Below, piece after piece: positions 31,192 through 59,723 of a stretch of DNA of 64,000 bases. Every line of letters starts with the position of its first letter. The stretch's first letter is position 1. The position numbers were made by a program, and so were the translations under genes. A model generated the notes under the pieces. The model was not told where the DNA came from, made no database searches, and saw only the letters and a list, made by a program, of their open reading frames with translations. This DNA comes from Caldisericia bacterium (lineage in GTDB: Bacteria > Caldisericota > Caldisericia > UBA6126): NCBI GenBank assembly GCA_023146045.1, contig JAGLCW010000094.1, positions 2,579 through 66,578 of the forward strand, written 5' to 3'.

Positions 31192-32091
31192 TCATATACC
31201 TCTATTGATGTCTTCTAAAGCTATTTTTAATTCTTCTTCGTTAGGTGCTCTCCCATGCCAACCAGCTTGATTCTCCATATAAGAAACACCTTTGCCTTTG
31301 ATGCTTCTCCCAATAATGACCGTTGGTCTATCGGTGTTAGAAAGAGCAGTTTGAATCCCATTATTTATTTCATCTATGTTGTGTGCGTCTATAACAATAG
31401 TGTGCCAATTAAATGATTTGAACTTGTCTTCAATTGGAGCGATGCCCATTATGTCTTCAACAAAACCATCAATTTCTAAATTATTGTAATCAAAGAAAAG
31501 CGTAAGGTTATCCAAGTGGAAGTGCGCCGAACTCATTATAGCTTCCCAAATTTGGCCCTCTTGAGATTCACCATCTCCACAGAGAGCGTATACTTGATTT
31601 GGTTTGCCATCTTGTTTTAAGCCCATCGCTATTCCAGCTGCAATAGATAGCCCTTGACCAAGGGAACCACTTGAAACTTCTATGCAATCAAGCTTACTAT
31701 TTGCTGGATGACCCTGTAGTGGAGATCCAAATTCACGAAAAGTAGAGAGAAGACTTCTGTTGTAATAACCAGTTTCTGCGTATAATGAATAAATGAGAGG
31801 TGTTACATGTCCTTTTGAGTATATTACATGGTCTCTACCATCCCAGAAAGGATCGGATGGTTTGTGTTTCAAAAAATTTGACCAAAGTACACCAAACATA
31901 TCAGCAGCCGATAAGGAGCCACCTGGATGCCCAGAACCAGCAGAAAAAGTAGAAACGACAATGTCACGTCTAATCTGCTGACAAAATCTTTTTACTTCTT
32001 CTTTCTCAAGTTTTGCTGGGTATTCCGGGTAGGCCTTAATGTTATAAAGATTATCCATTAACAATTCTAGACCTAATTCCCGTCTTTTCAT
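31192..32091 (-). CDS. Transketolase, N-terminal (TPP-binding) subunit
   Basis: 'GHPGGSLSAADM', 'GDGESQEGQIWEA' TPP-binding motifs. 299 aa, split-type transketolase. Confidence 0.85.
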   Translation of the reverse strand: MKRRELGLELLMDNLYNIKAYPEYPAKLEKEEVKRFCQQIRRDIVVSTFSAGSGHPGGSLSAADMFGVLWSNFLKHKPSDPFWDGRDHVIYSKGHVTPLIYSLYAETGYYNRSLLSTFREFGSPLQGHPANSKLDCIEVSSGSLGQGLSIAAGIAMGLKQDGKPNQVYALCGDGESQEGQIWEAIMSSAHFHLDNLTLFFDYNNLEIDGFVEDIMGIAPIEDKFKSFNWHTIVIDAHNIDEINNGIQTALSNTDRPTVIIGRSIKGKGVSYMENQAGWHGRAPNEEELKIALEDINRGI

Positions 32092-32202: not shown

Positions 32203-33858
32203 ATGAAAGAACATACAAAAAACATAAGATCCGAAAATGGGCAAGTGATAGTTCTATACGCAATTTTTATTCTCTTCCTTGTTGTGGTAGGTCTTTCAAC
32301 TGTGGATTTAGGAAAAATTGTAATGTTTAAAACAGAGGTAAGACAATTCACCGACCAAAGCGCAATTGCGGCAGAGTCCGTTGAGAAAGAAACTGTCCCA
32401 TTGCTAATGAATGTGCAAAATACTTCTTCGTATGCCAGACTTGTGTACAGCACGGGGATAATGTTGCAGAATTATAACCAAGCAGCGGCAAAGCTGAATC
32501 AATATGTGTCTAATTACGATCAGTTATCAAGTTGGTTTTACGACTATGGCGATGAATTTGTCGATAAGTATAAAAATCTTGCAGATCAATTCGTCACTTT
32601 TCCGTCTGGGATTAACTATGAAGACAACGCATTTTTGACGATGGATCCAGGGATATTCGATCACCAAGAGCGTTTATTCAAAGGTGTGTTTTCTTTTGCA
32701 CAATTGGAAAAAATGATAGTTTATAAAGAATTGCTAGATAAGAATGTTTCGATGAGTACGCAAGGCTGGCAAAATTCGCAAACAATATTTATTCCAGCTG
32801 CATATCTATTAAAAAGATCCCCGTTAGCCGTAATAGACTTTGGTTCATTAAATATTTATTGTAAAGAAAATTCTGGGCTAACGACAAATAGAACAAGTTT
32901 TTATAATGGGTCTTTTACTGAAGAATTAAGATCCGGTATGCTATGTTATCAAGCTGTAAATATTCCAGATTTGCTAATGAATGATGCTATTGTAACTAAC
33001 AATGGAAAACTCGGTAAACAATTGATGGTTTCATATTCTGGACTTGAACTTCAACAAGGAAGCAATTTACCAGATGAGTGGATTGTTGAATACAATGAAA
33101 AGCTGCATGCAAAAAATATTGCTGCAATGTTGATTATTGATGAAACGGATGACTATGTGAATCCAGTCAATGGGAATGCATGGGGATTAAGAAAAAACTA
33201 CGTAAAAGCAAAATGGGATGAACTCGAACTATTGTATCAAGATTTATTCACTGAACTTGAGCTGATTGATAGTCTTGAGATGGAATCCCCGCATGAATTT
33301 TATAATAATGCTACCCCAAGGGTAAGTAGTATGAAAAGTTTTATGTGGGCTGAAGATCCAGCGTATGTTGCTCTAGCAACAAACATGGGTTACGATTTAA
33401 GCGTAAATGATGAAAGTGAAAGTTTCTATGCCAATGTGACTCTCGAAGACGTGTTTGCTGACGAGAATAATTTTTTTCAACTTATTGATGACTCAATAGA
33501 CACATTTGATGCTATGATAACTAATTTATTTACAGATTACCCAGATTTTGTAAGCAGTATATCTGAATATGCACTAGACGACACTAATTACGAAAATAGT
33601 TTTCCTTCAATTTTAAATGCTATTGTTGGAGATGTTGAGAGTCATGCTTCGTTGTCTTCGGAAAATCAAAGAATTGTGCAATATTTGGGAAGATTAAGCT
33701 CTAATGTTCTAAGGCAAAACAAAGAAAGTCAGGACTTCCAAATATTAATATCCCACAGGAACGGTTTTAATTATTCTGAACTAAAACCAAGCCAAGAATT
33801 AAAAGTGTATTTGAATAAGTTTTTTGGAGAGAGCATTAACAAATGGGAGATTAATTAA
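32203..33858 (+). CDS. TadG/Tad-domain-like membrane-anchored protein (putative pilus-associated)
   Basis: N-terminus 'ENGQVIVLYAIFILFLVVVGLSTVDLGK' resembles the TadE/TadG N-terminal domain (hydrophobic helix then a VDLG motif). Large soluble remainder of unknown function. Confidence 0.4.
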   Translation: MKEHTKNIRSENGQVIVLYAIFILFLVVVGLSTVDLGKIVMFKTEVRQFTDQSAIAAESVEKETVPLLMNVQNTSSYARLVYSTGIMLQNYNQAAAKLNQYVSNYDQLSSWFYDYGDEFVDKYKNLADQFVTFPSGINYEDNAFLTMDPGIFDHQERLFKGVFSFAQLEKMIVYKELLDKNVSMSTQGWQNSQTIFIPAAYLLKRSPLAVIDFGSLNIYCKENSGLTTNRTSFYNGSFTEELRSGMLCYQAVNIPDLLMNDAIVTNNGKLGKQLMVSYSGLELQQGSNLPDEWIVEYNEKLHAKNIAAMLIIDETDDYVNPVNGNAWGLRKNYVKAKWDELELLYQDLFTELELIDSLEMESPHEFYNNATPRVSSMKSFMWAEDPAYVALATNMGYDLSVNDESESFYANVTLEDVFADENNFFQLIDDSIDTFDAMITNLFTDYPDFVSSISEYALDDTNYENSFPSILNAIVGDVESHASLSSENQRIVQYLGRLSSNVLRQNKESQDFQILISHRNGFNYSELKPSQELKVYLNKFFGESINKWEIN

Positions 33859-35055: not shown

Positions 35056-35235
35056 ATGGCAAAGCCAAAAATTGACGTAGATTGTTGCACTGGCTGTGGT
35101 GTCTGCATAGATGCATGTCCAGTTGAAGCTTTAGAATTAGTAGATGATATTTCAAAGCTAACTCAACCAGATAATTGCACTGGCTGTGGAGCATGCGTTG
35201 ATGCATGTCCATTAGAGTGCATAGTTCTCGGGTAA
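35056..35235 (+). CDS. 2x[4Fe-4S] ferredoxin (59 aa)
   Basis: Two CxxCxxCxxxCP motifs (CCTGCGVCIDACP, CTGCGACVDACP). Strong RBS AGGAGG. Absent from the ORF track because it is under 60 aa. Confidence 0.75.
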   Translation: MAKPKIDVDCCTGCGVCIDACPVEALELVDDISKLTQPDNCTGCGACVDACPLECIVLG

Positions 35236-35354
35236 TCGAGTAATCTAGAATTAAAAAGCTTCAGGTTGTCCTGGGGCTTTTTAATTTGTCATTCCTTGAC
35301 AAAATCAACGAAATACACAGAATTAAGTTAATACTTTTTTAAGAATGTGGTGAA

Positions 35355-36308
35355 ATGAGCTCTGAAAAAAAAGGCTACAATTTTATTTATATGCCTAAAC
35401 GAGGAGAGTCTAAGAGCATACATCTCTCTTCTGTTTGGTTGTTTTTGTCTATATTGGTTTTTGTTTCTTTTGTGTTTTTTGGGTTTAAAGCCGTAAACCA
35501 ATATCAATACTATAAGGCAGAGTATGCCAAAATCTCTGGTTTATCTCTCGAAGCAACAGAACTTCTTCAGCAAGAAGAGCTGGAAGCTATAGAAAAAGAA
35601 CTTCCACCAATTTATGCAATTCAAGATAAAAATAAAGAAAAAATGGAACACATTTTTCAGGAAGACATTAAAAATAGAAATGAATTAAGTCTTAACGAGT
35701 TAAATCTCGATCCAAAATCATATCTTTCAGATGTTAATCGTTATGCTGGGTATTTTAATAACCTTACAAGCTTTAATCTGCAGAAAGCGATTGATCTTGA
35801 ACAACGATTAGTGAGTCAAAAGGAAAGATTAGATACCATAATTGCAAGTAATGAAGTGCTATCTCTTGCTTCTGAAGATTTTCTAGAACAATGGGAGAAA
35901 ACGCCTCAAGGCTTTCCTTTGCCAGGAGCAATTGATCCAGGTTTTGGATACAGAATCCATCCAGTATGGGGGATACCAGATTGGCACACTGGAGTAGATA
36001 TATCAGGATATTACGGACAAGATGTAAAAGCTACTGCAAGTGGGCGTGTCGTACAGTCTACTTTTTCTGGTGGTTATGGCAATGTTGTGGTAGTATACCA
36101 CCGAGATGGAATAAGAACGCTTTATGCACACAATTCTAAAAATCTTGTTTATGAAGGCGAGTATGTCGCAAGTGGTCAAGTAATAGCAAAAGCTGGAAAA
36201 ACTGGTATTGCTACATGCGTTCACACGCACTATGAGGTACAGTATGGTAAAAAAGCTATTGATCCTGAAAAGTTTAATAATTTGGTGAAACAAAATGCTC
36301 CAAAATAG
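35355..36308 (+). CDS. M23 family metallo-endopeptidase (LytM domain, catalytically intact)
   Basis: N-terminal TM helix and coiled-coil. 'HTGVDISG' (HxxxD) and 'HTHYEVQ' (HxH) zinc ligands are present. Confidence 0.8.
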   Translation: MSSEKKGYNFIYMPKRGESKSIHLSSVWLFLSILVFVSFVFFGFKAVNQYQYYKAEYAKISGLSLEATELLQQEELEAIEKELPPIYAIQDKNKEKMEHIFQEDIKNRNELSLNELNLDPKSYLSDVNRYAGYFNNLTSFNLQKAIDLEQRLVSQKERLDTIIASNEVLSLASEDFLEQWEKTPQGFPLPGAIDPGFGYRIHPVWGIPDWHTGVDISGYYGQDVKATASGRVVQSTFSGGYGNVVVVYHRDGIRTLYAHNSKNLVYEGEYVASGQVIAKAGKTGIATCVHTHYEVQYGKKAIDPEKFNNLVKQNAPK

Positions 36309-37173
36309 AACAAATAAAAAGAATAGTAAATTACTAATAGTTCCAGCTAACAATTCAAAACCAATTCAAATTGAGATCTCAAAAACATTAAAAACAAGTT
36401 TGTTTGTATTGTTTGTGGTTTTGACTATTTCCTTAATATGGTTTGGTTCTCAATATGCAAAATTCAAAGGTGATGTTGTTGCTTTCAATGATAGATTTGA
36501 ATACATAATGAACAGTAGTGACAAGGATCTTTCAAACGAAATTAAGATAAAAAAAGCATTAATAAAGTTAGAAGCGACAGCAGATGCAACAGATTTGTTT
36601 ATTATTAAGGCTTCAGATACAGAAACAGAAGCTTGTAAAAAACTTGAACTTCCTTATTCTAGCAAAGAGTTTTCTGATTTTATTGTCGCTGAAAGAAATA
36701 GTTTGGCAAAGGCACAACCTGCTTCAATTACTGAAAGTCAGTATGTGAACACACAAAACCATAACAATGAGCTTGAATCTTCTATTCAAAGGCAAGAAGC
36801 TATAAACGCTAACATGAAAATTACACCAACAGGGCTACCAGTTATAGGTATAATTGTAAACCATGGTTATGTTACAGCACCTGGAATAGAAATTTATGCA
36901 CCGTATGGAACATATGTTAGAGCAACAGCTAGCGGGGAAATATCAGAATTGAAAGCTATTTTTCCAGGCATTTATACGATCGAAATTATTCATAAAAATG
37001 AAGACTTAAACACAACTATTTCAAGATATCTCTTTTGCATAAAACCTTTTGTTGATATTGGAGATAGTATCGAAAAAGGGCAAGTTATTGCAAAAGTTGG
37101 TTATTACCACAACACAACGAATAGCATAGTTGGATATCAGCTATTAGTTAATAATCTTTTGGTAGAACCATAA
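36295..37173 (+). CDS. Degenerate (probably catalytically inactive) M23/LytM-domain protein
   Basis: LytM-like C-terminal domain ('GIEIYAPYGTYVRATASGEIS...KGQVIAKVG') that lacks the HxxxD and HxH zinc ligands. N-terminal TM helix. Overlaps the upstream M23 gene. Confidence 0.6.
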   Translation: MLQNRTNKKNSKLLIVPANNSKPIQIEISKTLKTSLFVLFVVLTISLIWFGSQYAKFKGDVVAFNDRFEYIMNSSDKDLSNEIKIKKALIKLEATADATDLFIIKASDTETEACKKLELPYSSKEFSDFIVAERNSLAKAQPASITESQYVNTQNHNNELESSIQRQEAINANMKITPTGLPVIGIIVNHGYVTAPGIEIYAPYGTYVRATASGEISELKAIFPGIYTIEIIHKNEDLNTTISRYLFCIKPFVDIGDSIEKGQVIAKVGYYHNTTNSIVGYQLLVNNLLVEP

Positions 37174-37187
37174 TAGGAAGGTGAGAT

Positions 37188-37604
37188 ATGGCTTTTGGAT
37201 CTAAAACTGATCAAAAAACTGGACGTTCTTCTTCTACATCTTTTTTAGGAAAAGGGACTTATATTGATGGCGTTTTTAACGTAGAGGGGAACGTAAGAAT
37301 TGACGGAAGAGTTAAAGGTGAAATTAAAGGCGATGCCGACGTCATAATTGGCGAAGGGTCTTTAATAGAAGCCAATATCTCTGTTACAAATATTACCATA
37401 ATGGGCGAAGTAACAGGAAATGTTATATGCTCCGAAAAACTAGAAATTCACAATACTGGAAAAGTTATTGGAGAAATATCTGCCGATAAGTTGATTATTG
37501 AAGAAAATGCTTTTTTTGAAGGTAAAAGTATGATGCATCAAAAAAAAGAAATTCCAGCTTTGCCTGAAAGCAGCAAAAAGCAATCAGACAATAAAGCAAA
37601 TTAA
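37188..37604 (+). CDS. ccmA: Bactofilin (CcmA-like cytoskeletal protein)
   Basis: Beta-helical bactofilin core 'DGVFNVEGNVRIDGRVKGEIKGDADVIIGEGSLIEANISVTNITIMGEVTGNV'. Confidence 0.8.
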   Translation: MAFGSKTDQKTGRSSSTSFLGKGTYIDGVFNVEGNVRIDGRVKGEIKGDADVIIGEGSLIEANISVTNITIMGEVTGNVICSEKLEIHNTGKVIGEISADKLIIEENAFFEGKSMMHQKKEIPALPESSKKQSDNKAN

Positions 37605-37621: not shown

Positions 37622-40189
37622 ATGAAAAGAATAATTAGTATTTTAATCTCTTTTTGTCTTGTATTCGGAGTTTTTATCGGTGAAAATGCTTTTGGTGAAA
37701 ATGGAGCCAAGAAAGTTGATTCACTTGGGAATAATCCATGGGTAACAATTGCTCACGATAGCATGATGTCTGGTATGTCTTTATCAGAGCTGGGAGAAGA
37801 TTTTGAAGAAGCCGAAGATTGGCCGTTTGATTCAGACGCAGGCTCTGGAGCGATGTTGGGGCGAGGATCCATTATCTATGATGGGATATTGTTTGTCCAG
37901 CTTAATTCAGATTTAAGAGGTTCATCTTCAGAAGTTATCGCTGTAGAGGTAGACTCTGGTGAAGAAATATGGAGAACTGAAATTGACGGTAGGCTTGCAT
38001 TTACTGCACCAGTTATTGATGAAGAATTAGGATTAATCATAGCTGCTGCGACTAATGGTTATGCTGAAAAAGGAAGTGGAGAAACTTTGATTTCTGCTTT
38101 AACTTTAGAAGACGGAGAAGTAGAATGGACATCAACCTCAACTGGTGCTATTTCTTGTCCACTAACCATAAGTGATGGAGCAGTGTATTTTAAGGCTATT
38201 TTTGGAAAACCAATCGAAGACAATGAAGACTATGATTCAACCGGAGATGATTCAATTGTTGTAAAAATTGATGCCGAATCTGGCGATGTTGAATGGGAAG
38301 CAGATATAGAAGGTGCTTGGTATTTAGAATGGGATGCACCTTGTGCTGTAGTTGGTGACTATGTTTATGCGGCTACATGTAATTACGGAATGAATAGTAA
38401 AACTGGTAGTATCAGATTTTTAGGTCCTGCAAGGCTTTATTGTCTAGATACAGAATCTGGCGATATCGAATGGGATATGGTTGATACGTTAGGTTTAGCA
38501 GGAAGCGGTATTTGTGCAGATGATGAATTTGTTTATTTTGCAAGAAGTAGGATAGACATGGACAGCAATCAAGCTGAAATGGTTGTATCTGCTCATGAAC
38601 TAGAGTCTGGCAGCGAAGAATGGGAATTCAGCGCAAATGGAGTGATGACTTGGTGGTGTTCTCCTGTATGTAATGATGATTCGGTCTTTGTACAAGAACG
38701 TGGCGGTAAAGTCTGGGCGATTAGCAAAGACGATGGAGACAAAGAATGGTCAAAAGGCGTTGGAGACATGATCTATAATACAGCAATTGCGCTTGCTGGT
38801 GATTATGTAATAGCAGCTGGCTGGGAAACTAGTGGTACCAAAAGAACTGGTTCAGAAATGATGATTCTTGATGCTTCAAGAAGAGGTAAAAAAGTCTGGA
38901 CTGAAAAATGTGATGAAGAAATTAACCACGTAGCAGTATATGGCAACAGAATATTTTTTACCGGTAAAGTAGAAATTTATTGCTATGAGGCTATGGTGCC
39001 AAAACTAGTAGTTGATCCTGAAAAAATTGAACTTGAAGAAGTTGAAAGAAATACAAAAACTGAAATTAATCTTTCCCTCGAAAATAAGGGAGTTGAAGGT
39101 TTAGAAGGCACAGTTGAAGTAGATCAAGATTGGCTAACAATTGATATAGAAAAAGTCGACGATGAAACTACCGAAGCAACTGTGACAATTAACACATGGG
39201 ATCTTGATCCAGATGACTATTCTGGAAGAATTGTATTTGATACAAACGGTGGCAAAGTTATAGTCCCAGTATTAATTACTGTTGTAGACGAAGAACCACC
39301 AGTTATTGAATGGGATTTTGAAGATTTTAAGCTTATTGATGAAAAACTTTACACAAATCAAAAAGAAGCTGTTTTAAAAGGTAAAACAGAACCTACAGCT
39401 TATATAATTATTAACGGAGAAGATGCGGAAGTTGATTCCGATGGTTTGTTTGAGCTTGAAATTGAACTTAAAGAAGGTAAAAACGAAATTGAAGTTAAAA
39501 CTGAAGATGACCTCGGGAACAAGGGCGAAGAAGCACTTGAACTCTATCTAGACACTAAACCACCAGAATTAACTGTTTCAACTAAAGATTACACTCTTTC
39601 TACAGAAGAAAACTTCTACATCATTGGACAATGCAAAGAAGATAATGTTATTGTAACAATAGATGAAGAAGAGATTGAACTGGGAAAAGCTGGAAAATTT
39701 GCAGTTGAGGTTACCCTGGAAAAAGGCGAGAATGTATTTGTTTTAAAGGCAACTGATCAATTTGGGAATGAAACTGTTATAGATTTACACATTGTTTATC
39801 CGAAAAAGAAAATTGTAATTCTACAAATTGGTAACAAGGAAGCTGAAGTTAATGGTCAAATAACCATTCTTGAGGCACCACCAACCATAATTAATGGTAG
39901 AACAATGGTACCACTACGTTTTATTGCTGAAACATTCGGAGCAGAATTAGGCTGGGATGGCAAAGATCAAAAGATTACATTGAATTACTATGGGCAAGTT
40001 ATTGAATTGTGGATTGGCAGAAAAACTGCAATGGTAGATGATGATCCAATGATTCTTGAGGCACCACCAACCATAATTAATGGTAGAACAATGGTACCAC
40101 TACGTTTTATTGCTGAAACATTCGGAGCAGAATTAGGCTGGGACGGAGATACGCAGACAATTACATTAATATATCCAAAAACTTCATAA
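37622..40189 (+). CDS. Secreted PQQ-like beta-propeller protein with Ig-like domains and two C-terminal CuAO-N domains
   Basis: Signal peptide and repeated propeller blades (…YVYAAT…, …VYFAR…). Acidic Ig-like middle region. Two 'APPTIINGRTMVPLRFIAETFGAELGWDG' CuAO-N domains. Confidence 0.7.
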   Translation: MKRIISILISFCLVFGVFIGENAFGENGAKKVDSLGNNPWVTIAHDSMMSGMSLSELGEDFEEAEDWPFDSDAGSGAMLGRGSIIYDGILFVQLNSDLRGSSSEVIAVEVDSGEEIWRTEIDGRLAFTAPVIDEELGLIIAAATNGYAEKGSGETLISALTLEDGEVEWTSTSTGAISCPLTISDGAVYFKAIFGKPIEDNEDYDSTGDDSIVVKIDAESGDVEWEADIEGAWYLEWDAPCAVVGDYVYAATCNYGMNSKTGSIRFLGPARLYCLDTESGDIEWDMVDTLGLAGSGICADDEFVYFARSRIDMDSNQAEMVVSAHELESGSEEWEFSANGVMTWWCSPVCNDDSVFVQERGGKVWAISKDDGDKEWSKGVGDMIYNTAIALAGDYVIAAGWETSGTKRTGSEMMILDASRRGKKVWTEKCDEEINHVAVYGNRIFFTGKVEIYCYEAMVPKLVVDPEKIELEEVERNTKTEINLSLENKGVEGLEGTVEVDQDWLTIDIEKVDDETTEATVTINTWDLDPDDYSGRIVFDTNGGKVIVPVLITVVDEEPPVIEWDFEDFKLIDEKLYTNQKEAVLKGKTEPTAYIIINGEDAEVDSDGLFELEIELKEGKNEIEVKTEDDLGNKGEEALELYLDTKPPELTVSTKDYTLSTEENFYIIGQCKEDNVIVTIDEEEIELGKAGKFAVEVTLEKGENVFVLKATDQFGNETVIDLHIVYPKKKIVILQIGNKEAEVNGQITILEAPPTIINGRTMVPLRFIAETFGAELGWDGKDQKITLNYYGQVIELWIGRKTAMVDDDPMILEAPPTIINGRTMVPLRFIAETFGAELGWDGDTQTITLIYPKTS

Positions 40190-40201
40190 GTAGATAAGAT
40201 A

Positions 40202-40237
40202 AAAAAGGGCTTTCATTAATGAAAGCCCTTTTTTTTA
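40202..40237. terminator. Bidirectional rho-independent terminator
   Basis: Hairpin AAAAAAGGGCTTTCATTAATGAAAGCCCTTTTTTTT between convergent genes. Confidence 0.7.
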
Positions 40238-40256: not shown

Positions 40257-42275
40257 CTATGAATAAAGATTTCTAAAATCATCTTCAGAAAGTATTTTTA
40301 CCCCAAGGGTTTTTGCTTTATCAAATTTTGAACCTGGATTCTCTCCAGAAATAAGAAAGTTAATTTTAGATGAAATTGCACTTTTAACAGAACCACCTAA
40401 AGATTCTATAGTTTCTTTGATTGTATCTCTAGAAACTGATAGTGTACCAGATATTACAAATGAAATACCAAGGAGTGGTAGATTATTCGATGAAGACTTA
40501 GGTGAATCATTCGAAAAAGTAAAACACAATTCCACGCATTTATTGACCATATCCACATTGGTTGAATTGTGTATGTAATTAATAATATTCTCAGCTGTTC
40601 CTGGTCCGATACCCGGTATGGCAATCAGCATTTCTTTACTGGCTAGCAAAAAGTCTTTTGGTCCATTAAAATACTTGACTAAAAGTTTTGCAGTAGTTTC
40701 ACCGACTCCTTCAATCCCAATCGCTGACAAGAAACGCCAAAATGGCTTCTGTTTTGATTCCTGTATGGAAAGAATTAGCTTATTAGCTAGTATTCTCTGT
40801 ATTCCTTCCATTTTCATTAAATCTTTTGGTTGTAGTAAATAAATATCTGGAATAGAAAAAACAATATCTTCTTTAATTAAGCGGGACATTAGCTGTTTTC
40901 CTAAGCCATCAATATCCATTCCACTTTTTGATACAAAGTGGAAAAAACTTTCTTCAATTCTTGCTGGGCAATTAACGTTAATACATTTAATATAAATTTC
41001 CTCAGGATTATTATATACCTCAGAATTGCATACAGGACAATGCGTTGGAACCAACAAGGGTACACTATTGTTTGGACGTTTTGAGATGTCTACTTCAATA
41101 ACTTCTGGAATAACATCTCCGGCTCTTTGTATTATGACAGTATCTAGAACCCTAATGTCTTTTTTTTTGAGTTCGCTGTAGTTGTGCAAAGTAGCGTTGG
41201 AAACCGTAACCCCACCAACCAAGATTGGCTTTAGTTCTGCTACCGGAGTGAGTATTCCGGTTCTACCAACGGATATTCTAATTGCATGAATAGTAGTGTA
41301 AACTCTTTCGGCTTGAAATTTATATGCAATTGCCCACTTTGGAGCCCTTGATGTGAAACCAAGTTTTTCCCACAACTCTATGTTATCTATTTTAAAAACT
41401 GAACCATCAATTTCATAAGGAAGATTAAACCTCTTTTTTTGAAGGCTTAACTGATAATTTTCTATTTCATTAAATGATTTAAGCTGTTTAATTTCAGGAT
41501 TAACTGGAAAACCCAATTTTTTTAAAAAATCCAGTATTTCATGATGAGAAGAAAAATGAAACTCATTGCTATCGTAGTCAGTTAAAAAATAGAAGTAAGC
41601 CGTTAGGTTCCTTTGACTTGTTACAGTTGGATTAAGCTGTCTTAAAGCTCCTGCTGCTGCATTTCTAGGGTTAGCAAATTCAGTATCTCCGCTTATTCTT
41701 CTTGATTCGTTAAGTGTAACAAAATCAGAATTTTTCATTATAATTTCGCCACGTACCCTAAAAGAGCTGGGTAGTTTTACATTATTGAACTTTGCAGTAG
41801 AAATTATGGATAAAGGGATAGACTTTATTGTTCGAACATTTAATGTAACATTTTCTCCGACTAGTCCATTACCGCGTGTACCGGCAGAAGTTAGTATCCC
41901 ATTATCATATGCAATTTCAATAGATAAACCATCTAGTTTTGGCTCTGCAACTATAGGTGAATGTGTTATATCATTAATGCGAGAAGCTCTTTGAACCCAA
42001 TTGTCAATGTCTTCTTTGTTAAAAGCATTGTCTAAGCTATACATTTTACTTTTGTGAATAAATCGTTGAAAAGAATTCAATGGCTCGTGGCCAACTCTTT
42101 GCGTTGGTGAATCAACTGTAATCAACTCTGGATTTGATTCTTCTAGTTTTTTAAGTTGTTTGAACATGGCGTCATATTCCTGGTCACTAACATTAGGGTC
42201 ATCAAGCACATAATAGCGATAATTATGTGCTTGAATTTGTTTTTTAAGGCTAGAAATTAAATCCTTAAGGCTCAT
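40257..42275 (-). CDS. ligA: NAD-dependent DNA ligase
   Basis: Adenylation motif 'EPKLDGLSIEI', OB fold, Zn-finger cysteines (CPVCNSEV...C), HhH and C-terminal BRCT. Confidence 0.9.
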   Translation of the reverse strand: MSLKDLISSLKKQIQAHNYRYYVLDDPNVSDQEYDAMFKQLKKLEESNPELITVDSPTQRVGHEPLNSFQRFIHKSKMYSLDNAFNKEDIDNWVQRASRINDITHSPIVAEPKLDGLSIEIAYDNGILTSAGTRGNGLVGENVTLNVRTIKSIPLSIISTAKFNNVKLPSSFRVRGEIIMKNSDFVTLNESRRISGDTEFANPRNAAAGALRQLNPTVTSQRNLTAYFYFLTDYDSNEFHFSSHHEILDFLKKLGFPVNPEIKQLKSFNEIENYQLSLQKKRFNLPYEIDGSVFKIDNIELWEKLGFTSRAPKWAIAYKFQAERVYTTIHAIRISVGRTGILTPVAELKPILVGGVTVSNATLHNYSELKKKDIRVLDTVIIQRAGDVIPEVIEVDISKRPNNSVPLLVPTHCPVCNSEVYNNPEEIYIKCINVNCPARIEESFFHFVSKSGMDIDGLGKQLMSRLIKEDIVFSIPDIYLLQPKDLMKMEGIQRILANKLILSIQESKQKPFWRFLSAIGIEGVGETTAKLLVKYFNGPKDFLLASKEMLIAIPGIGPGTAENIINYIHNSTNVDMVNKCVELCFTFSNDSPKSSSNNLPLLGISFVISGTLSVSRDTIKETIESLGGSVKSAISSKINFLISGENPGSKFDKAKTLGVKILSEDDFRNLYS

Positions 42276-43216
42276 TAAGATTTTTTTCTTTTAATTACCT
42301 TTTTAACTTTTTCGATAATATCATTTGATGTTAAATGGTATGCTTCCATTAATTCATCTGGAGTACCACTTTCACCAAATGTGTCATTGATTCCAACCAT
42401 TTCAATTGGAACAGGACAATTTTGGACAATTACTTCGCTAATGGCAGATCCAAAACCAGTCATTATTTGATGTTCTTCTGCAGTTACAATTGCACCTGTT
42501 TCTTGTGCAGACTTAATTATTAATTCCTTATCCATAGGTTTTATTGTGTGGATATTTATTACTTTACAATGAATGCCTTCTGTTTTTAAACTTTCAGCTG
42601 CAACTAAAGCTTCATAAACCAATGAACCACATGCTATTATTGATACATCTCTACCGTCTTTGTATACTTGCCCTTTGCCTAATACGAATGGAGTGTCAGG
42701 CTTTGTAACAATTGGGATGGCTTCTCTTCCAAAGCGAATGTATACTGGACCAGGAATGCTAGCAGATGCTTTTGTAGCTTTGTATGTTTCATGGTAATCA
42801 CAAGGCACAATTACGGTCATATTTGGCAAACCACGCATTAGTCCAATTTCTTCTAGCGCTTGGTGGGTTGCACCGTCTGGGCCAACAGAAATACCACCAT
42901 GGGCACCACCGATTTTTACATTTAGATTAGAATAGCAAATTGTAGTACGTATTTGATCATATGCTCTACCAGAAACAAATACTCCATAAGTTGAAACATA
43001 TGGTATCTTTCCCGTTAAAGACAATCCAGCAGCACTACCCAACATGTTTTGTTCTGCAATGCCAATATTGTATGATCTTTTTGGATACTTTTTATGAAAA
43101 CCAACTGTAGTTGTTGATTTAGATAAATCAGCATCAAGTACTACAATCCTGTCATCAGTTTTAGCCATATCCATTAAAGCGTCAGAATATCCAAACCTAG
43201 TAGCTTTCTTTTCCAT
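42275..43216 (-). CDS. Transketolase, C-terminal (pyrimidine-binding/C-terminal domain) subunit
   Basis: 313 aa split-type transketolase C-terminal section. Its N-terminal partner gene lies 10 kb away at 31192-32091. Confidence 0.85.
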   Translation of the reverse strand: MEKKATRFGYSDALMDMAKTDDRIVVLDADLSKSTTTVGFHKKYPKRSYNIGIAEQNMLGSAAGLSLTGKIPYVSTYGVFVSGRAYDQIRTTICYSNLNVKIGGAHGGISVGPDGATHQALEEIGLMRGLPNMTVIVPCDYHETYKATKASASIPGPVYIRFGREAIPIVTKPDTPFVLGKGQVYKDGRDVSIIACGSLVYEALVAAESLKTEGIHCKVINIHTIKPMDKELIIKSAQETGAIVTAEEHQIMTGFGSAISEVIVQNCPVPIEMVGINDTFGESGTPDELMEAYHLTSNDIIEKVKKVIKRKKS

Positions 43217-46520: not shown

Positions 46521-49500
46521 ATGGATCAGATTCAATTCGGGAAATATATTGCATATGAAGAAATTGGTAGAGGCGGGATGTCTATAGTATATAAAGGTAA
46601 GCATCCAACTTTGAATAAGCCTGTAGCAATTAAAGTTTTATCTGAATTTTTAAGCGTAGACAAAGGATTTATTAAAAGATTCCAAGATGAAGCTCAGATG
46701 TTGTCATCTTTTAGGCATGCCAATATAGTTTCAATTTTAGACTATGGTAAGCAAGGATCAAGCTACTTTATTGTTATGGATTTCATTGAAGGATTTACAG
46801 TTAAGCAAATGATTTTAGAAACTGGAGCTCTTTCATTAAACATTGCAACAAATATTGTAAAAAATGTGGCTACTGCAGTCGCTTATACACACCGAAAGAG
46901 TATAGTACATCAAGACATTAAATCATCAAATATTATGGTTGATTCAAATGGTAGAATATTAGTAACAGATTTCGGACTTTCAAAAAATATTAGCCTTGAA
47001 AATGTTGAAGAAAATCCGTATGAAGTTGCTGGTACACTAGCATATAGCGCTCCAGAGCAACTAGACAGAAAACAGGGGAAAGTTGATGGAAGAACCGACA
47101 TTTATTCCCTAGGTGTTGTTTTTTATGAAATGGTTACTGGCAAGTTACCATTTGCAGACGAAAATACCACTGTTAATATTGCATATCAACATTTAAATGT
47201 GGTTCCAGAATCACCAAAAAAAATTAGACCAGATCTATTATTAAAATCATCTAGTATCATTATGAAAATGCTTAAAAAGAAACAAGATGACCGGTACCAA
47301 ACAATGGATGATTTGCTAAAAGAAATTAACGAACTAGAAGATGTACTGCAGTATTATAAACCTCAAGACGAAGAAGAGGAAGGTTCATTTTTCTCATTTC
47401 AGAATGATGATGAAGAAAATGATGATGAATCTCATGGATACAAACAAAGCGATTCTAAAGAAGAAGTTTCAAACTATGAAGAATCTAATGCTGCCATGGT
47501 CTTTTCAACAGAAAAAAGTGACACTATTGGTAAAAAGCAAATCACAGATATGAAAACTGTAGACAGTAACGTAGATTCATTTCCACCAGTGGATATTTCA
47601 GATCCGTTTATTGGAAGAGAAATAAAACATAGGTATAGAATTCAAAAGTTAATTCTAAGAAGAATTTTAAGTAGATTGTACTATGGTGTTGATTTAGTTA
47701 AAGAGTCTCCCGTAACAATACAGTTACCAAATGAATCAAGGCCTACTTTCAAAACAAGAATTGACAAAGAGATTCAAACAATGAAAAAAATAAACCACCC
47801 TGGGTTTGTTAAATTTATTGATGTTATAGAAGACAATGGTGTGAATTTTGTAATCAGAGAATATGTAGATGGCTATACGATTAAAAATTTACTTAAAAGA
47901 GAAAAATTGTCTATTAAACGTAGCGTAATGATTGCAATGGATGTTTTAGATGCATTATCGTACTTACACAACAAGGGTATCGTTCACCGTGATCTAAACT
48001 CAGACGTAGTTATTGTTCCAAAAGAAGGCAGAACAAGAATAAGCAGCTTAGGTTTTACTAGAGTTGAAGATGCATCGTCGGTCTCTAGTGGAGAATTTCT
48101 TGGTGTTGTCCAATATACAGCACCAGAACAGATAATTCAATCTCATTCAGATGTAAGAACAGATATATACGCAGTTGGAATATTAATGTTTGAAATGTTA
48201 ACTGGTGTGCCGCCTTTTGATTCACCATTGCCAGTTGAAGTTATGGATATGCATTTGAAACGTGTACCAAGATTTCCTGAAGATGCGCAAAAAGGTATTC
48301 CATTGAAACTGCAACGAATTGTTTTAAGGGCACTTTCAAAGCAGCCAGAGCAAAGATTCCCAACTGCTCCTGAGATGGCTGGATCATTAAAGAGTTTTTT
48401 AGAAAGCTTTACAGGTAAAGAAGTAAAAATTGATGCCATTACTGGCGACATGAATGAGAATGAAAAACAAACTGGAATAGAAAAAGATACAGAAAATAGA
48501 GTAAATGTTCTAAGTGACACAGGTATTTATAGGAATATTCAAACTAGCAGAAATACAAAAAAACAGCAATTCTCAATAAAAAAGCCGTTAAGTAGATCAG
48601 AAAAAAAAGAAAAAGACAACAAAGTAAATATAAGAAAAATAATTAACAACGACCTGCAAACAGAAACAAAAAAGAGAGATATAGGAATTTCCAAAGAGAA
48701 TGAAGTATACGAAGCAACTCAGAAAAAAAAGAAAACAGAAAAGAAGAACCAGATAAGCTCTCCAAAATTTGAAGTTAAAGCTCCAAAGAACAAGAAAGTT
48801 GTTAGAAGCAATGGAAAAAATAAATCTAACAAAAAGAAAAGCAATCCTTTACTGATAATAGCTTTATTGGTTGCAGCATTTTGCACTATCTTTGCGATTT
48901 ATTATTTCAAAAAGCCTGCTACAGGCGTCAACGAAGAAACTCACGCAAACAACACTAACCGAATAGAATGGGTATCGCCAAATAGTTCAGCTGAAACAAC
49001 ACTAATCCCGATGATACCTCTCGAAATAGAATTAAAGCAACTTGATTATTCCGAAGGAAATTATTTTGACCTAGTGGATTTACCAAAGGAAATTGAATAT
49101 AGTGTTTCTTTACCAGACAGCAAAGGGACTTTTGAGATTATGATGTATACATCAAATCAAATTCGAAGCAGCACGGTGGCTTTTTCGCTAATCTGTATGG
49201 ATCCTGAAGATAAAATTCTAAGTGAAACGAAATATGTTATTGCATATAACTATAAAGCAATTAAACAAATAGTTTTGAATTATTCTAATGCCACTTACAG
49301 TGTTAACAAGCATGAGGAGAAAACAATTGAACCAAATGCGGCGTTAAACGATGAAAGCGTATATATCCCAATAAGGTTTTTAGTAGATAGCCTCGGAGGT
49401 AAAATCGAGTATGATACCGAGACAGAGTGTATAACTATTACAGATATTGACAGCCATGAGTATAAATTTTATCTGACCACACAACAGTATTCAGTTGACG

Positions 49501-49658
49501 GAAATCTAGAACGAGAATACAATCCTATTTTAGAAATAAACGATACCGCATATCTGGCAGCTGATTTTCTAAGTTTAAAAATGAATTTTAAAATCACTCT
49601 AGAATATAATGCCGAGAAGCAATTCCTTATTAGTTTGTTAAAAAGTAAAGAAGATTAA
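46521..49658 (+). CDS. Receptor-type Ser/Thr protein kinase with tandem kinase and pseudokinase domains, a TM helix and an extracellular domain ending in a CuAO-N-like module
   Basis: Domain 1 has 'IGRGGMSIVYKG', 'AIK', 'HQDIKSSN', 'DFG' and 'APE'. Domain 2 (about res 370-620) keeps HRD and APE but lacks the Gly loop, VAIK Lys and catalytic Asn, and has LGF for DFG. K-rich linker, TM 'LLIIALLVAAFCTIFAIYYF', and C-terminal 'ESVYIPIRFLVDSLGGKIEYDTETECITI'. RBS GGAGGG before the ATG. Confidence 0.8.
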   Translation: MDQIQFGKYIAYEEIGRGGMSIVYKGKHPTLNKPVAIKVLSEFLSVDKGFIKRFQDEAQMLSSFRHANIVSILDYGKQGSSYFIVMDFIEGFTVKQMILETGALSLNIATNIVKNVATAVAYTHRKSIVHQDIKSSNIMVDSNGRILVTDFGLSKNISLENVEENPYEVAGTLAYSAPEQLDRKQGKVDGRTDIYSLGVVFYEMVTGKLPFADENTTVNIAYQHLNVVPESPKKIRPDLLLKSSSIIMKMLKKKQDDRYQTMDDLLKEINELEDVLQYYKPQDEEEEGSFFSFQNDDEENDDESHGYKQSDSKEEVSNYEESNAAMVFSTEKSDTIGKKQITDMKTVDSNVDSFPPVDISDPFIGREIKHRYRIQKLILRRILSRLYYGVDLVKESPVTIQLPNESRPTFKTRIDKEIQTMKKINHPGFVKFIDVIEDNGVNFVIREYVDGYTIKNLLKREKLSIKRSVMIAMDVLDALSYLHNKGIVHRDLNSDVVIVPKEGRTRISSLGFTRVEDASSVSSGEFLGVVQYTAPEQIIQSHSDVRTDIYAVGILMFEMLTGVPPFDSPLPVEVMDMHLKRVPRFPEDAQKGIPLKLQRIVLRALSKQPEQRFPTAPEMAGSLKSFLESFTGKEVKIDAITGDMNENEKQTGIEKDTENRVNVLSDTGIYRNIQTSRNTKKQQFSIKKPLSRSEKKEKDNKVNIRKIINNDLQTETKKRDIGISKENEVYEATQKKKKTEKKNQISSPKFEVKAPKNKKVVRSNGKNKSNKKKSNPLLIIALLVAAFCTIFAIYYFKKPATGVNEETHANNTNRIEWVSPNSSAETTLIPMIPLEIELKQLDYSEGNYFDLVDLPKEIEYSVSLPDSKGTFEIMMYTSNQIRSSTVAFSLICMDPEDKILSETKYVIAYNYKAIKQIVLNYSNATYSVNKHEEKTIEPNAALNDESVYIPIRFLVDSLGGKIEYDTETECITITDIDSHEYKFYLTTQQYSVDGNLEREYNPILEINDTAYLAADFLSLKMNFKITLEYNAEKQFLISLLKSKED

Positions 49659-52221: not shown

Positions 52222-53041
52222 TAGACAAAATAAAAAAGATGATTTGTTTAGTCCTTATTATCAATCGAAAAAGAGAAAAAATACCATAAATGAGGGTAAT
52301 AAAAACGTTAGCGTAAAAGAAGGATCGTTGTCAGATATTTTTCAAACAACAATCAGTACTTTTGCATTGGCATTAATGATAGTTGGCGGGTTAGCATGTG
52401 TATTCGTAGTGTTTTATATTATGTATCACAATATCATAATGGGTATATTGTTTTCTGGAATTGCTGCTGCAGGGTTTTTGATGTTTTTGCAAATCAAAAA
52501 AACAGAAAAGGAAAATAAGTTTGTGAATCAACTACCAGATACATTGTCTGCTGTTGCAAATTCTTTAAAAGCAGGATTTTCACTTGATCAAGCTTTTGAG
52601 TTTGTATCTATTTCTATGCCAGAGCCAACTAAAAGTGAATTCTCTAGAATACATTTGAATTATAGGGTTGGATTAACTCTTTCTACCTCTTTAGAAGATT
52701 TGCTTAAAAAGTATCCTAATCCTGAAGTAAAACTATTTGTATCTTCAATGGTTTTACAGGAACAAATAGGCGGTAATGTTGTTCCTTTTCTTGGAGAATT
52801 GAAAAATATTCTGAAGGAGCGAGTAAAACTTAAAGGAAGTATTGCAGTTGGAACGGCTCAAACAAGGTTATCATCTGCAATTGTCGCTCTTCTTCCTTAT
52901 GTAATGTTAATGCTTCTTGTTTCGTCTGGTTATGATTCTTTAACGAATACATTAAAAGGCATTCTATTGCTTATATTCGCCATACTTATGCAGGCTACTG
53001 GATTGTTTATTAATGATAAAATAACAAAGGTTGATGTGTAA
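52202..53041 (+). CDS. tadB: Tad pilus assembly inner-membrane protein TadB (T2SS-F domain)
   Basis: GspF/T2SSF-like domain with TM helices ('LQEQIGGNVVPFLGELKNILKER'), located between cpaF and tadC. Confidence 0.7.
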   Translation: MKTGNSSRQNKKDDLFSPYYQSKKRKNTINEGNKNVSVKEGSLSDIFQTTISTFALALMIVGGLACVFVVFYIMYHNIIMGILFSGIAAAGFLMFLQIKKTEKENKFVNQLPDTLSAVANSLKAGFSLDQAFEFVSISMPEPTKSEFSRIHLNYRVGLTLSTSLEDLLKKYPNPEVKLFVSSMVLQEQIGGNVVPFLGELKNILKERVKLKGSIAVGTAQTRLSSAIVALLPYVMLMLLVSSGYDSLTNTLKGILLLIFAILMQATGLFINDKITKVDV

Positions 53042-59712: not shown

Positions 59713-59723
59713 TGTCTCCTCCT

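What the first reader, a model, noticed from the sequence alone, without database searches (positions are those of the whole stretch)
35355..37604. Csd1/Csd2/CcmA-like cell-shape module: active M23, degenerate M23 and bactofilin in one operon
There are three consecutive, overlapping or abutting genes. The first is an M23 peptidase with intact HxxxD and HxH ligands. The second is an M23 paralog that has lost all zinc ligands. The third is a bactofilin. This mirrors the Helicobacter pylori csd1-csd2-ccmA helical-shape locus, in which the inactive Csd2 partners the active Csd1 and the CcmA bactofilin positions peptidoglycan trimming. The module predicts curved or helical morphology, or localised peptidoglycan remodelling, in this organism. 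A 2x[4Fe-4S] ferredoxin gene sits just upstream.
Basis: partly seen in the sequence, partly recalled or inferred. Interest (0 to 1): 0.6.

Follow-up and report, generated by a model that had tools for sequence, protein, structure and literature searches.

The report
Bactofilin operon with active and dead M23
An uncultured Caldisericia bacterium carries an operon for a cell-wall-cutting enzyme, a catalytically dead copy of it and a cytoskeletal bactofilin; this is a lineage-specific elaboration of an already known bactofilin–peptidase cell-shaping module that resembles, but is not orthologous to, the Helicobacter helical-shape locus.

Summary
ORF1 (35355-36308) is an M23 peptidase with all five key residues. 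ORF2 (36295-37173) is an M23 paralog with none of them. The third gene (37188-37604) is a bactofilin. They are tightly packed behind a conserved promoter, and the unit runs through a fourth gene (855-aa secreted beta-propeller protein) to a terminator at 40201-40234. The upstream ferredoxin has its own terminator and is unrelated.

The Helicobacter reading is only partly right. ORF1 is Csd1-like, but ORF2 is not a Csd2 ortholog:
- It keeps 0/5 key residues, against 3/5 in Csd2.
- It has no C-terminal tail.
- Its family profile does not hit Csd1/Csd2.
- The gene order is reversed.

The ORF2 family is tiny and was found only in this Caldisericia sublineage. Cryosericum and several Bacillota have one active M23 plus bactofilin. 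Both ORFs have the LmdC layout (cytoplasmic beta-hairpin, TM, helices, LytM). ORF2 is under strong purifying selection (dN/dS 0.056).

Best explanation: this is a variant of the known LmdC-bactofilin module (Pöhl 2024, which already lists Caldisericum exile) that independently gained a pseudo-peptidase partner. A helical cell shape is not implied. Interest is modest.

The parts
35248..35287 (+). Intrinsic-terminator-like hairpin (18-bp stem, 4-nt loop, followed by a U-tract) closing the upstream ferredoxin gene. It marks the 5' boundary and is not part of the module.
   Evidence: -27.8 kcal/mol, z = -6.38, 0 of 200 shuffles fold as well. A T-run at the same place is conserved in related loci.
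35296..35323 (+). Sigma-70-type promoter: TTGACA, 16-nt spacer, CAGAAT.
   Evidence: 10 of 12 matches. In one search the -35 element cTTGAC(A/T) is invariant in six loci whose proteins are only 37-67% identical, and the -10 keeps A at position 2 and T at position 6.
35355..36308 (+). ORF1, 317 aa: an LmdC/Csd1-like bitopic M23 endopeptidase predicted to be active. Cytoplasmic beta-hairpin at residues 7-25 (nt 35373-35429), TM helix from residue 26, periplasmic helices 65-181, LytM domain 198-302 (nt 35946-36260).
   Evidence: signature HDHHH. AF2 mean pLDDT 80.6, LytM domain 93-97. Csd1 chain 5j1l_C at rmsd 2.0 A.
36295..37173 (+). ORF2, 292 aa: a paralog with the same architecture but a fully degenerate LytM domain (a pseudo-peptidase). 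Beta-hairpin at residues 11-28 (nt 36325-36378), TM approx. residues 35-51 (assigned by eye from the hydrophobic stretch; the model shows one continuous helix 30-116), helices to residue 174, LytM 196-291 (nt 36880-37167). Ligand positions read A, E, F, I, G.
   Evidence: (hhalign 99.6%, 278 collinear columns); dN/dS 0.056.
37188..37604 (+). Bactofilin, 138 aa: N-terminal MAFGSK membrane-targeting-like motif (nt 37188-37217), beta-helical core at residues 18-114 (nt 37239-37529), Lys-rich C-terminal tail.
   Evidence: 2n3d BacA 1.2e-11; 6ria 5.4e-11. N-terminus MAFG[SN][KR] (MSAFG/MTAFG in four members) across the lineage; published consensus MFSKKKK.
37622..40189 (+). Fourth gene of the operon, 855 aa: hydrophobic N-terminus consistent with a signal peptide (read from the sequence; no predictor run), PQQ/BamB-like beta-propeller, Ig-like domains, and two C-terminal Cu_amine_oxidN1 domains. 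Co-transcription is inferred; its role in the module is unknown.
   Evidence: It follows the bactofilin at 17-73 nt in all triplet loci. It evolves faster than the other genes (dN/dS 0.28). The CuAO-N1 pair also ends other large proteins in the window.
40201..40234 (.). Bidirectional intrinsic terminator (15-bp stem flanked by A- and T-runs) between the 855-aa gene and the convergent ligA. It marks the 3' boundary of the operon.

Best explanation
This is a four-gene operon (promoter 35296-35323 to terminator 40201-40234) encoding a bactofilin-guided peptidoglycan-remodelling module of the LmdC-bactofilin kind, extended by a lineage-specific pseudo-enzyme.

Proposed mechanism:
1. The bactofilin polymerises on the inner face of the membrane through its N-terminal MAFGSK motif (inferred).
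2. Its filaments dock the short cytoplasmic beta-hairpin tails of two bitopic membrane proteins, ORF1 and ORF2 (inferred by analogy with R. rubrum and H. neptunium LmdC).
3. ORF1 has a complete Zn site and cuts peptide cross-links locally (the residues are shown; the activity is inferred).
4. ORF2 most likely arose by tandem duplication of ORF1 within Caldisericia, lost all five catalytic residues, and kept the tail, TM, helical region and LytM fold under purifying selection (shown). It probably pairs with ORF1 through the helical region to stabilise, position or gate it. This makes it a functional analogue of H. pylori Csd2 but not its ortholog (inferred).

The output is localised wall remodelling, not specifically a helical shape.
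For: Domains and ligand states.

Operon structure.

The same full-length architecture in ORF1 and ORF2: hhalign 99.6% over 278 collinear columns. AF2 models both show an N-terminal beta-hairpin, a TM helix running into long helices, and a LytM domain.

The tail motif (basic residues, a hydrophobic strand ending in Pro, a turn, a second strand) is shared by all bactofilin-adjacent M23s from Caldisericota, Bacillota and Saganbacteria, and is kept in ORF2. In ORF2's first strand L14 is invariant and I15 and V16 are at least 90% conserved. In LmdC the hairpin is the BacA-binding determinant.

M23-bactofilin adjacency is reported in 226 species including C. exile.

Synteny of the triplet plus the fourth gene holds down to 30% ORF2 identity. 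dN/dS is 0.056 for ORF2 and 0.035 for ORF1.

The ORF2 family is narrow: 5 representatives at E <= 1e-30 and one partial sixth out of 1.84 billion, all degenerate. Sister Caldisericota have a single active M23.

Csd1-Csd2 is a precedent for an active/inactive M23 heterodimer formed through helical domains.
Against: No interaction was tested. The tool would not accept a heterodimer prediction.

The LytM-domain NJ tree does not resolve ORF2's origin: ORF1+ORF2 as sisters gets 50/200 bootstraps and ORF2+Csd2 gets 40/200.

The hairpins have only moderate model confidence (pLDDT about 59-62 in ORF2 and 71-79 in ORF1).

In H. pylori the Csd1-Csd2-Csd7 complex moves largely independently of CcmA, so operon linkage does not prove direct docking.

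The role of the 855-aa protein is unknown.
Confidence: 0.6

Rival explanations
1. ORF2 is an EnvC/NlpD-type activator. A fully degenerate LytM domain on a helical stalk would switch on a cell-wall amidase (or another hydrolase) instead of partnering ORF1, with the bactofilin only providing position.
For: ORF2 has lost all five key residues, as E. coli EnvC has. The top Foldseek hit of the ORF2 model is the EnvC LytM domain, 4bh5_A, 3.8e-7. The ORF2 profile hits EnvC, SpoIIQ and DipM weakly, but not Csd2.
Against: The margin over other M23 folds is trivial (Csd1/Csd2 chains score about 5e-6). ORF2 is collinear with ORF1 over its whole length, including a cytoplasmic hairpin and TM. No amidase or FtsEX-like gene was seen in the window ORFs scanned; 45 of the 49 ORFs of at least 90 aa were scanned directly or are covered by precomputed Pfam labels, but the rest of the genome is unseen. 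ORF2 always sits between an active M23 and a bactofilin.
Confidence: 0.15
2. ORF2 is a negative regulator or decoy. By keeping the bactofilin-docking tail and a peptidoglycan-binding groove without catalysis, it would compete with ORF1 for scaffold sites or substrate, and so set how much cutting occurs.
For: The tail and first beta-strand are retained and the LytM fold is retained with high confidence. Selection is purifying. Translational coupling through the 14-nt overlap is consistent with fixed stoichiometry.
Against: There is no direct evidence. The only studied precedent, Csd2, is a stabilising partner whose loss mimics loss of Csd1 and does not increase cutting.
Confidence: 0.15
3. The locus is a true ortholog of the H. 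pylori csd2-csd1-ccmA helical-shape locus (shared ancestry or horizontal transfer), and it predicts helical cells.
For: ORF1's best solved relative is Csd1. The composition of three gene types is the same. ORF2 groups with Csd2 in 40 of 200 bootstraps.
Against: Ligand patterns differ (0/5 against 3/5). There is no profile hit to Csd2. The gene order is reversed (with csd2's position inferred from locus tags). ORF2 has no C-terminal tail. Csd2 is confined to two Helicobacter species, and ORF2 was found only in one Caldisericia sublineage whose relatives carry a single M23. The 40/200 grouping is what long-branch attraction between two degenerate sequences would give, and ORF2+Csd1+Csd2 is recovered 0/200 times. 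C. exile is filamentous.
Confidence: 0.04
4. The adjacency has no functional meaning. ORF2 is a decaying duplicate and the bactofilin acts on unrelated clients.
For: ORF2's LytM domain diverges faster than ORF1's (35-39% against 50-56% identity).
Against: dN/dS is 0.056. Family-specific invariant motifs are kept, and the gene is intact in all ten triplet loci. Spacing is tight and conserved, and the promoter is shared and conserved.
Confidence: 0.03

Closest known systems
LmdC-BacA (M23 endopeptidase-bactofilin) morphogenetic module of Hyphomonas neptunium and Rhodospirillum rubrum (Pöhl et al. 2024, PMC10945521)
   Same: A bactofilin gene lies directly next to a gene for a bitopic M23 protein with a short cytoplasmic beta-hairpin tail, TM, coiled-coil region and C-terminal LytM domain carrying all Zn ligands (ORF1). 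The arrangement is already catalogued in 226 species, including Caldisericum exile.
   Different: Here a second LmdC-like gene with no catalytic residues is inserted between the active peptidase and the bactofilin, and a large secreted beta-propeller protein is co-transcribed. The order is M23 then bactofilin, whereas the R. rubrum operon is named bacA-lmdC in the paper. No binding or activity data exist for this lineage.
Helicobacter pylori Csd1-Csd2-CcmA (Sycuro 2010, from memory; An et al. 2016, PMC5053510)
   Same: An active M23 (Csd1 is ORF1's best solved relative), a catalytically inactive M23 paralog, and a bactofilin are encoded together. The inactive paralog is thought to stabilise the active one in a 1:1 heterodimer made through helical domains.
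   Different: Csd2 keeps 3 of 5 key residues and is close to Csd1 (112 bits). ORF2 keeps none, has a 12-residue deletion before the HxxxD position, and is remote from ORF1 (43.5 bits). ORF2 lacks the Csd2 C-terminal tail. The order appears to be csd2-csd1-ccmA in H. pylori (csd2's position inferred from locus tags) against active-dead-bactofilin here. The two degenerate paralogs have separate, narrow taxonomic ranges, so the resemblance is best read as convergence. In H. pylori the links to CcmA run through Csd5 and Csd7, which were not looked for here.
EnvC/NlpD/DipM/SpoIIQ: non-catalytic LytM (dLytM) regulators and scaffolds
   Same: A LytM fold with a degenerate active site is kept for binding or regulation. 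[quoted passage not shown]
   Different: ORF2 is a bitopic protein with an LmdC-type cytoplasmic hairpin, encoded between an active M23 and a bactofilin. No amidase or FtsEX gene was seen nearby.

Membership tests
LmdC-type M23 / bactofilin module | Bactofilin gene immediately adjacent to an M23 peptidase gene on the same strand | tested here: met
   The gap between ORF2 and the bactofilin is 14 nt. The arrangement is conserved in L001-L010.
LmdC-type M23 / bactofilin module | Bitopic architecture: short N-terminal cytoplasmic region, one TM helix, coiled-coil/helical periplasmic region, C-terminal M23 domain | tested here: met
   The AF2 models of ORF1 and ORF2 both show it. This is a prediction, not an experiment.
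LmdC-type M23 / bactofilin module | Conserved cytoplasmic beta-hairpin in the tail | tested here: met
   Strands 7-15/18-25 in ORF1 and 11-15/24-28 in ORF2. The motif is shared by bactofilin-adjacent M23s of several phyla. Model confidence there is only moderate.
LmdC-type M23 / bactofilin module | All Zn-binding and catalytic residues present in the M23 domain | tested here: met
   ORF1 reads HDHHH. ORF2 fails this feature (AEFIG), so only ORF1 qualifies as an LmdC-type enzyme.
LmdC-type M23 / bactofilin module | Direct binding of the cytoplasmic tail to bactofilin polymers, and DD-endopeptidase activity | not testable with these tools
   Needs biochemistry or multimer modelling.
H. pylori Csd1/Csd2/CcmA locus | Active peptidase is a close relative of Csd1 | tested here: met
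   5j1l_A is the best PDB sequence hit (3.5e-23). 5j1l_C aligns at rmsd 2.0 A with 34% identity. This shows similarity, not demonstrated orthology.
H. pylori Csd1/Csd2/CcmA locus | Inactive partner is a Csd2 homolog (specific sequence affinity; E-x3-D / H / K-x-H pattern) | tested here: not met
   ORF2 has 0/5 key residues against 3/5 in Csd2. The ORF2 profile gives no hit to Csd1/Csd2 at E <= 1. The tree is unresolved: ORF2+Csd2 40/200, ORF2+Csd1+Csd2 0/200.
H. pylori Csd1/Csd2/CcmA locus | Gene order csd2-csd1-ccmA, with csd1 overlapping ccmA | tested here: not met
   Here the dead paralog abuts the bactofilin, not the active enzyme. In H. pylori the active Csd1 (HP1543) abuts and overlaps ccmA. 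The position of csd2 on the far side is inferred from locus-tag numbering.
H. pylori Csd1/Csd2/CcmA locus | C-terminal tail of the inactive partner that occupies the active partner's substrate groove | tested here: not met
   ORF2 and all its orthologs end with the last LytM strand (...LLVEP / ...LIQPK).
H. pylori Csd1/Csd2/CcmA locus | 1:1 heterodimer through the helical domains; helical cell shape; Csd5/Csd7 partners | not testable with these tools
The organism is uncultured. Csd5 and Csd7 were not searched for.
EnvC/NlpD-type dLytM amidase activators | Degenerate LytM domain lacking catalytic residues | tested here: met
   The EnvC LytM domain is the top fold hit, by a negligible margin.
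EnvC/NlpD-type dLytM amidase activators | Partner amidase and/or FtsEX, with no bactofilin-type cytoplasmic tail | tested here: not met
   No amidase or FtsEX domain was found in the window ORFs scanned (the rest of the genome is unseen). ORF2 has an LmdC-type tail and TM.
Bactofilin (PF04519) | Beta-helical bactofilin core domain with an N-terminal membrane-targeting peptide | tested here: met
   Core domain 95.6 bits, covering 97 of 98 profile positions. PDB hits: BacA and the Thermus bactofilin. The N-terminus MAFGSK is conserved in the lineage and resembles, but does not equal, the MFSKKKK consensus. Membrane binding was not tested.

The most novel reading that the evidence does not exclude
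Active/inactive M23 pairs tethered to a bactofilin have evolved at least twice independently, in Helicobacter and in a Caldisericia sublineage. In this lineage the dead copy kept the bactofilin-docking hairpin. That would mean LmdC-type endopeptidases work as scaffold-bound dimers, and that a pseudo-enzyme subunit is a recurrent way to throttle or aim cross-link cleavage. It would be a general design rule for bactofilin-guided wall remodelling, visible here in a deep-branching and barely studied phylum.
Probability: 0.35. Interest if true: 0.5.

Novelty: new variant of a known kind. Interest (0 to 1): 0.35.

Why it matters
Bactofilin-M23 modules are emerging as a widespread way for bacteria to localise cell-wall cutting, but how the peptidase is controlled is poorly understood. 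A second, independently evolved dead partner gives a natural comparison to Csd1-Csd2. This one is more extreme than Csd2, still carries the putative scaffold-docking tail, and is under strong purifying selection. It suggests concrete experiments on whether such peptidases act as heterodimers on the filament. It also corrects an over-reading: the locus does not predict helical cells, and the neighbouring ferredoxin is irrelevant.

Tried and rejected
1. C. exile context. I tried to learn whether the type species also has the dead paralog. The bactofilin search returned no named C. exile protein, and the cluster look-up of two 328-aa M23s and four 133-aa bactofilins gave no names. This is unresolved. 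The only hint is that the exhaustive ORF2-profile search found no further full-length ORF2-like cluster, and that the two 328-aa hits read HDHHH.

2. Heterodimer modelling.

3. LytM-domain phylogeny. NJ with 200 bootstraps supports each family (199 and 200 of 200) but not their relationship (50/200). It cannot decide the duplication history.

4. Fold search of ORF2. It confirms the LytM fold but does not discriminate between EnvC, Csd or lysostaphin types.

5. Genome scan.

6. Ferredoxin as part of the module. Rejected: it has its own terminator, a conserved promoter follows it, and in relatives it sits with or is fused to NifS/NifU.

7. Shared neighbourhood. I looked for elongasome, amidase or FtsEX genes in the window and for common neighbours of the M23-bactofilin pair in other phyla. 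None was found, apart from a class A PBP after the pair in one Clostridiaceae locus.
Full report
WHAT IS THERE

The window is a contig of an uncultured Caldisericia bacterium (phylum Caldisericota). It is identical to ENA ERZ23498500 scaffold_44, and NCBI names its proteins 'Caldisericia bacterium'.

On the + strand lie three genes:
- ORF1, 35355-36308, 317 aa
- ORF2, 36295-37173, 292 aa
- a 138-aa gene, 37188-37604

Pfam gives Peptidase_M23 at 92.5 bits for ORF1, Peptidase_M23 at 38.5 bits (cutoff 28.7) for ORF2, and Bactofilin at 95.6 bits for the third gene.

An alignment with Csd1, Csd2, two other solved M23 enzymes and lysostaphin, plus an HMM-column read-out, gives the five key positions:
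- ORF1: H-D-H-H-H
- H. pylori Csd2: E-D-H-K-H
- ORF2: A-E-F-I-G

ORF2 also has a 12-residue deletion just before the HxxxD position.

TRANSCRIPTION UNIT

ORF1 and ORF2 overlap by 14 nt. ORF2 and the bactofilin are 14 nt apart. The bactofilin and the next gene (37622-40189, 855 aa) are 17 nt apart. Each gene has a GGTG/GGAGG-type ribosome-binding site.

No terminator-like site lies between ORF1 and the start of the 855-aa gene; two weak 5-pair matches lie inside that gene. A 15-bp bidirectional terminator sits at 40201-40234, between the 855-aa gene and the convergent ligA.

Upstream, the ferredoxin gene ends at 35235 and is followed by an 18-bp hairpin with a U-tract at 35248-35287 (-27.8 kcal/mol, z = -6.4). 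A TTGACA-16-CAGAAT promoter follows at 35296-35323.

In an alignment of this intergenic region from six loci, whose proteins are only 37-67% identical, the -35 element cTTGAC(A/T) is invariant. The -10 keeps A at position 2 and T at position 6.

In more distant relatives the ferredoxin lies after NifS/NifU or is fused to NifU. The ferredoxin is therefore not part of the unit, and the operon has four genes, not three.

CONSERVATION AND SELECTION

The block of active M23, dead M23, bactofilin and 855-aa protein is syntenic in all Caldisericia-type loci recovered (L001-L010). This holds down to 30-34% ORF2 identity.

All ORF2-like proteins lack the ligand histidines, but they keep family-specific invariant residues: TP(S/T)G, ATAxG, KGQ, GYQ and an invariant Cys.

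For the closest unsaturated pair (L003 and L005, dS about 0.29), dN/dS is 0.035 for ORF1, 0.056 for ORF2, 0 for the bactofilin and 0.28 for the 855-aa protein. ORF2 is a maintained pseudo-enzyme, not a decaying copy.

ARCHITECTURE

Profile-profile comparison of the ORF1 and ORF2 families gives 99.6% probability with 278 collinear columns, spanning 4-302 against 5-292.

AF2 models show the same layout for both proteins:
- ORF1 (mean pLDDT 80.6): beta-hairpin 7-15/18-25, a TM helix continuing into long helices, LytM domain 198-302.
- ORF2 (mean pLDDT 71.3): beta-hairpin 11-15/24-28, helix 30-116, helices 126-137 and 153-174, LytM domain 198-290 with pLDDT 84-93.

This is the architecture described for LmdC. 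In LmdC the cytoplasmic hairpin is the determinant of bactofilin binding.

The tail motif (basic residues, a hydrophobic strand ending in Pro, a turn, a second strand) recurs in every bactofilin-adjacent M23 retrieved from Caldisericota, Bacillota and Saganbacteria, and ORF2 retains it. In ORF2's first strand L14 is invariant and I15 and V16 are at least 90% conserved.

The lineage's bactofilins begin MAFG(S/N)(K/R), or MSAFG/MTAFG in four members. This resembles the published membrane-targeting consensus MFSKKKK.

HOW IT RELATES TO HELICOBACTER

ORF1's best solved relative is Csd1, by sequence (3.5e-23) and by fold (rmsd 2.0 A over 139 columns). ORF2 is not a Csd2 ortholog, for these reasons:
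- Csd2 retains three of five key residues and is close to Csd1 (112 bits). ORF2 retains none and is remote from ORF1 (43.5 bits).
- The ORF2 family profile hits LytU, SpoIIQ, EnvC, ShyA, lysostaphin and DipM weakly, but does not hit Csd1 or Csd2 at E <= 1.
- ORF2 ends with the last LytM strand, so it has no equivalent of the Csd2 C-terminal tail that lies in the Csd1 groove.
- In H. pylori the active csd1 abuts and overlaps ccmA. Here the dead gene abuts the bactofilin. That csd2 lies on the far side of csd1 is inferred from locus-tag numbering and a construct name, not read from a map.
- Csd2 homologs are reported only from H. pylori and H. hepaticus.

DISTRIBUTION

An exhaustive HMM search of 1.84 billion representatives with the ORF2 profile finds 5 full-length ORF2-like representatives at E <= 1e-30, plus one partial sixth. 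All are degenerate. Generic, almost always catalytically intact M23 domains follow.

In the same scan:
- 'Caldiserica bacterium LacPavin' and two Candidatus Cryosericum genomes have one active M23 plus bactofilin.
- Several Bacillota and a Saganbacteria MAG have the same single pair.
- One Firmicutes MAG has two tandem active-M23/bactofilin pairs.

Pöhl et al. already list Caldisericum exile among 226 species with adjacent bactofilin and M23 genes.

The simplest history is a tandem duplication of an LmdC-like gene within Caldisericia, followed by complete loss of catalysis in one copy. That would make it convergent with Csd2.

The LytM-domain NJ tree agrees in topology but not in support:
- ORF1 clade: 199/200
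- ORF2 clade: 200/200
- ORF1+ORF2 as sisters: 50/200
- ORF2+Csd2: 40/200
- ORF2+Csd1+Csd2: 0/200

The history therefore rests on architecture, adjacency and taxonomic distribution, not on the tree.

MECHANISM

Shown:
- an intact Zn site in ORF1
- a dead but folded LytM domain in ORF2
- a shared tail/TM/helix/LytM layout
- operon structure
- purifying selection on ORF2

Inferred:
- The bactofilin polymerises on the membrane and docks both tails.
- ORF1 cuts cross-links locally.
- ORF2 pairs with ORF1 through the helical region to stabilise or gate it, as Csd2 is thought to do for Csd1.

Rivals:
- ORF2 as an EnvC-like activator of another hydrolase. It shares the 0/5 pattern and EnvC is its top fold hit. 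However, no amidase or FtsEX gene was seen in the window ORFs scanned, and its architecture is LmdC-type.
- ORF2 as a decoy that competes for scaffold or substrate.

The co-transcribed 855-aa protein has a hydrophobic N-terminus consistent with a signal peptide (no predictor was run). It carries a BamB/PQQ-like propeller, Ig-like domains and two Cu_amine_oxidN1 domains. The same C-terminal pair ends several other large proteins in the window, so it looks like a generic envelope anchor. Whether this protein works with the module is unknown.

WHAT THE LOCUS DOES NOT SHOW

It does not predict helical or curved cells. LmdC-bactofilin modules serve stalked budding and spiral bacteria alike. The flanking genes differ between phyla. 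The only described member of the phylum is filamentous. Even in H. pylori, recent tracking suggests that the Csd1-Csd2-Csd7 complex behaves largely independently of CcmA.

VERDICT

The feature is real and correctly observed. It is a lineage-specific variant of a known module, in a phylum already listed as having that module. Its interest is modest: it offers an independent, more extreme example of a pseudo-peptidase partner, and one that still carries the putative scaffold-docking tail.

Noticed in passing
window 5626-7941 (-), 8081-12763 (+), 37622-40189 (+), 46521-49658 (+), 61791-63890 (-): Five large proteins end in Cu_amine_oxidN1 (PF07833) domains, usually a tandem pair. Their N-terminal parts differ: Ig/BACON-like, cohesin-containing 1560 aa, PQQ propeller, a protein with two Ser/Thr kinase domains, and NHL repeats. 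This looks like the organism's generic envelope-anchoring module, comparable in use to SLH or CWB domains elsewhere.
   Followed up: partly
window 46521-49658 (+): A 1045-aa protein has two matched Pkinase stretches and a C-terminal Cu_amine_oxidN1 domain. This is an unusual pairing of a Hanks-type kinase with that extracellular module.
   Followed up: no
window 35056-35235 (+); L008 5274-5888; L009 4029-5812: The small 2x[4Fe-4S] ferredoxin upstream of the module follows NifS and NifU in L009 and is fused to NifU in L008. In the window and its closest relatives the nifS/nifU genes are absent from this position and only the ferredoxin remains.
   Followed up: partly
window 31192-32091 (-) and 42275-43216 (-): Transketolase is split into N-terminal and C-terminal (pyrimidine-binding) subunit genes that lie about 10 kb apart, on either side of the inserted + strand block (Tad-like protein, binding protein, ferredoxin, module) and ligA. 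The same layout is seen in all related loci.
   Followed up: no
window 32203-33858 (+) and 49664-54843 (+): A 551-aa protein has only a weak TadE/G-like N-terminal match. Further downstream is a Tad/type IV-like cluster: ParA/CpaE-like ATPase, T2SSE ATPase and two T2SSF proteins.
   Followed up: no
L021 2866-5803: A Firmicutes MAG (UBA5388) carries two tandem copies of the M23-bactofilin pair. Both M23 copies have intact catalytic residues, so here the whole pair was duplicated rather than the peptidase alone.
   Followed up: no
L023 5001-9030 (and the identical arrangement in L024): In a Clostridiaceae/Tissierellales MAG the M23-bactofilin pair is followed directly by a class A penicillin-binding protein (transglycosylase plus transpeptidase, 872 aa). 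This places a wall synthase and a wall hydrolase next to one bactofilin.
   Followed up: no
L009 5863-6897: The ORF1 ortholog is annotated as starting at a GTG at 6001. That start cuts off the conserved KSKGFSIVYIPNRGHS hairpin motif, which is encoded in frame just upstream, so the called start is probably wrong.
   Followed up: partly
window 58696-61789 (-): Three tandem paralogous Peptidase_M42 (glutamyl aminopeptidase/endoglucanase-like) genes.
   Followed up: no
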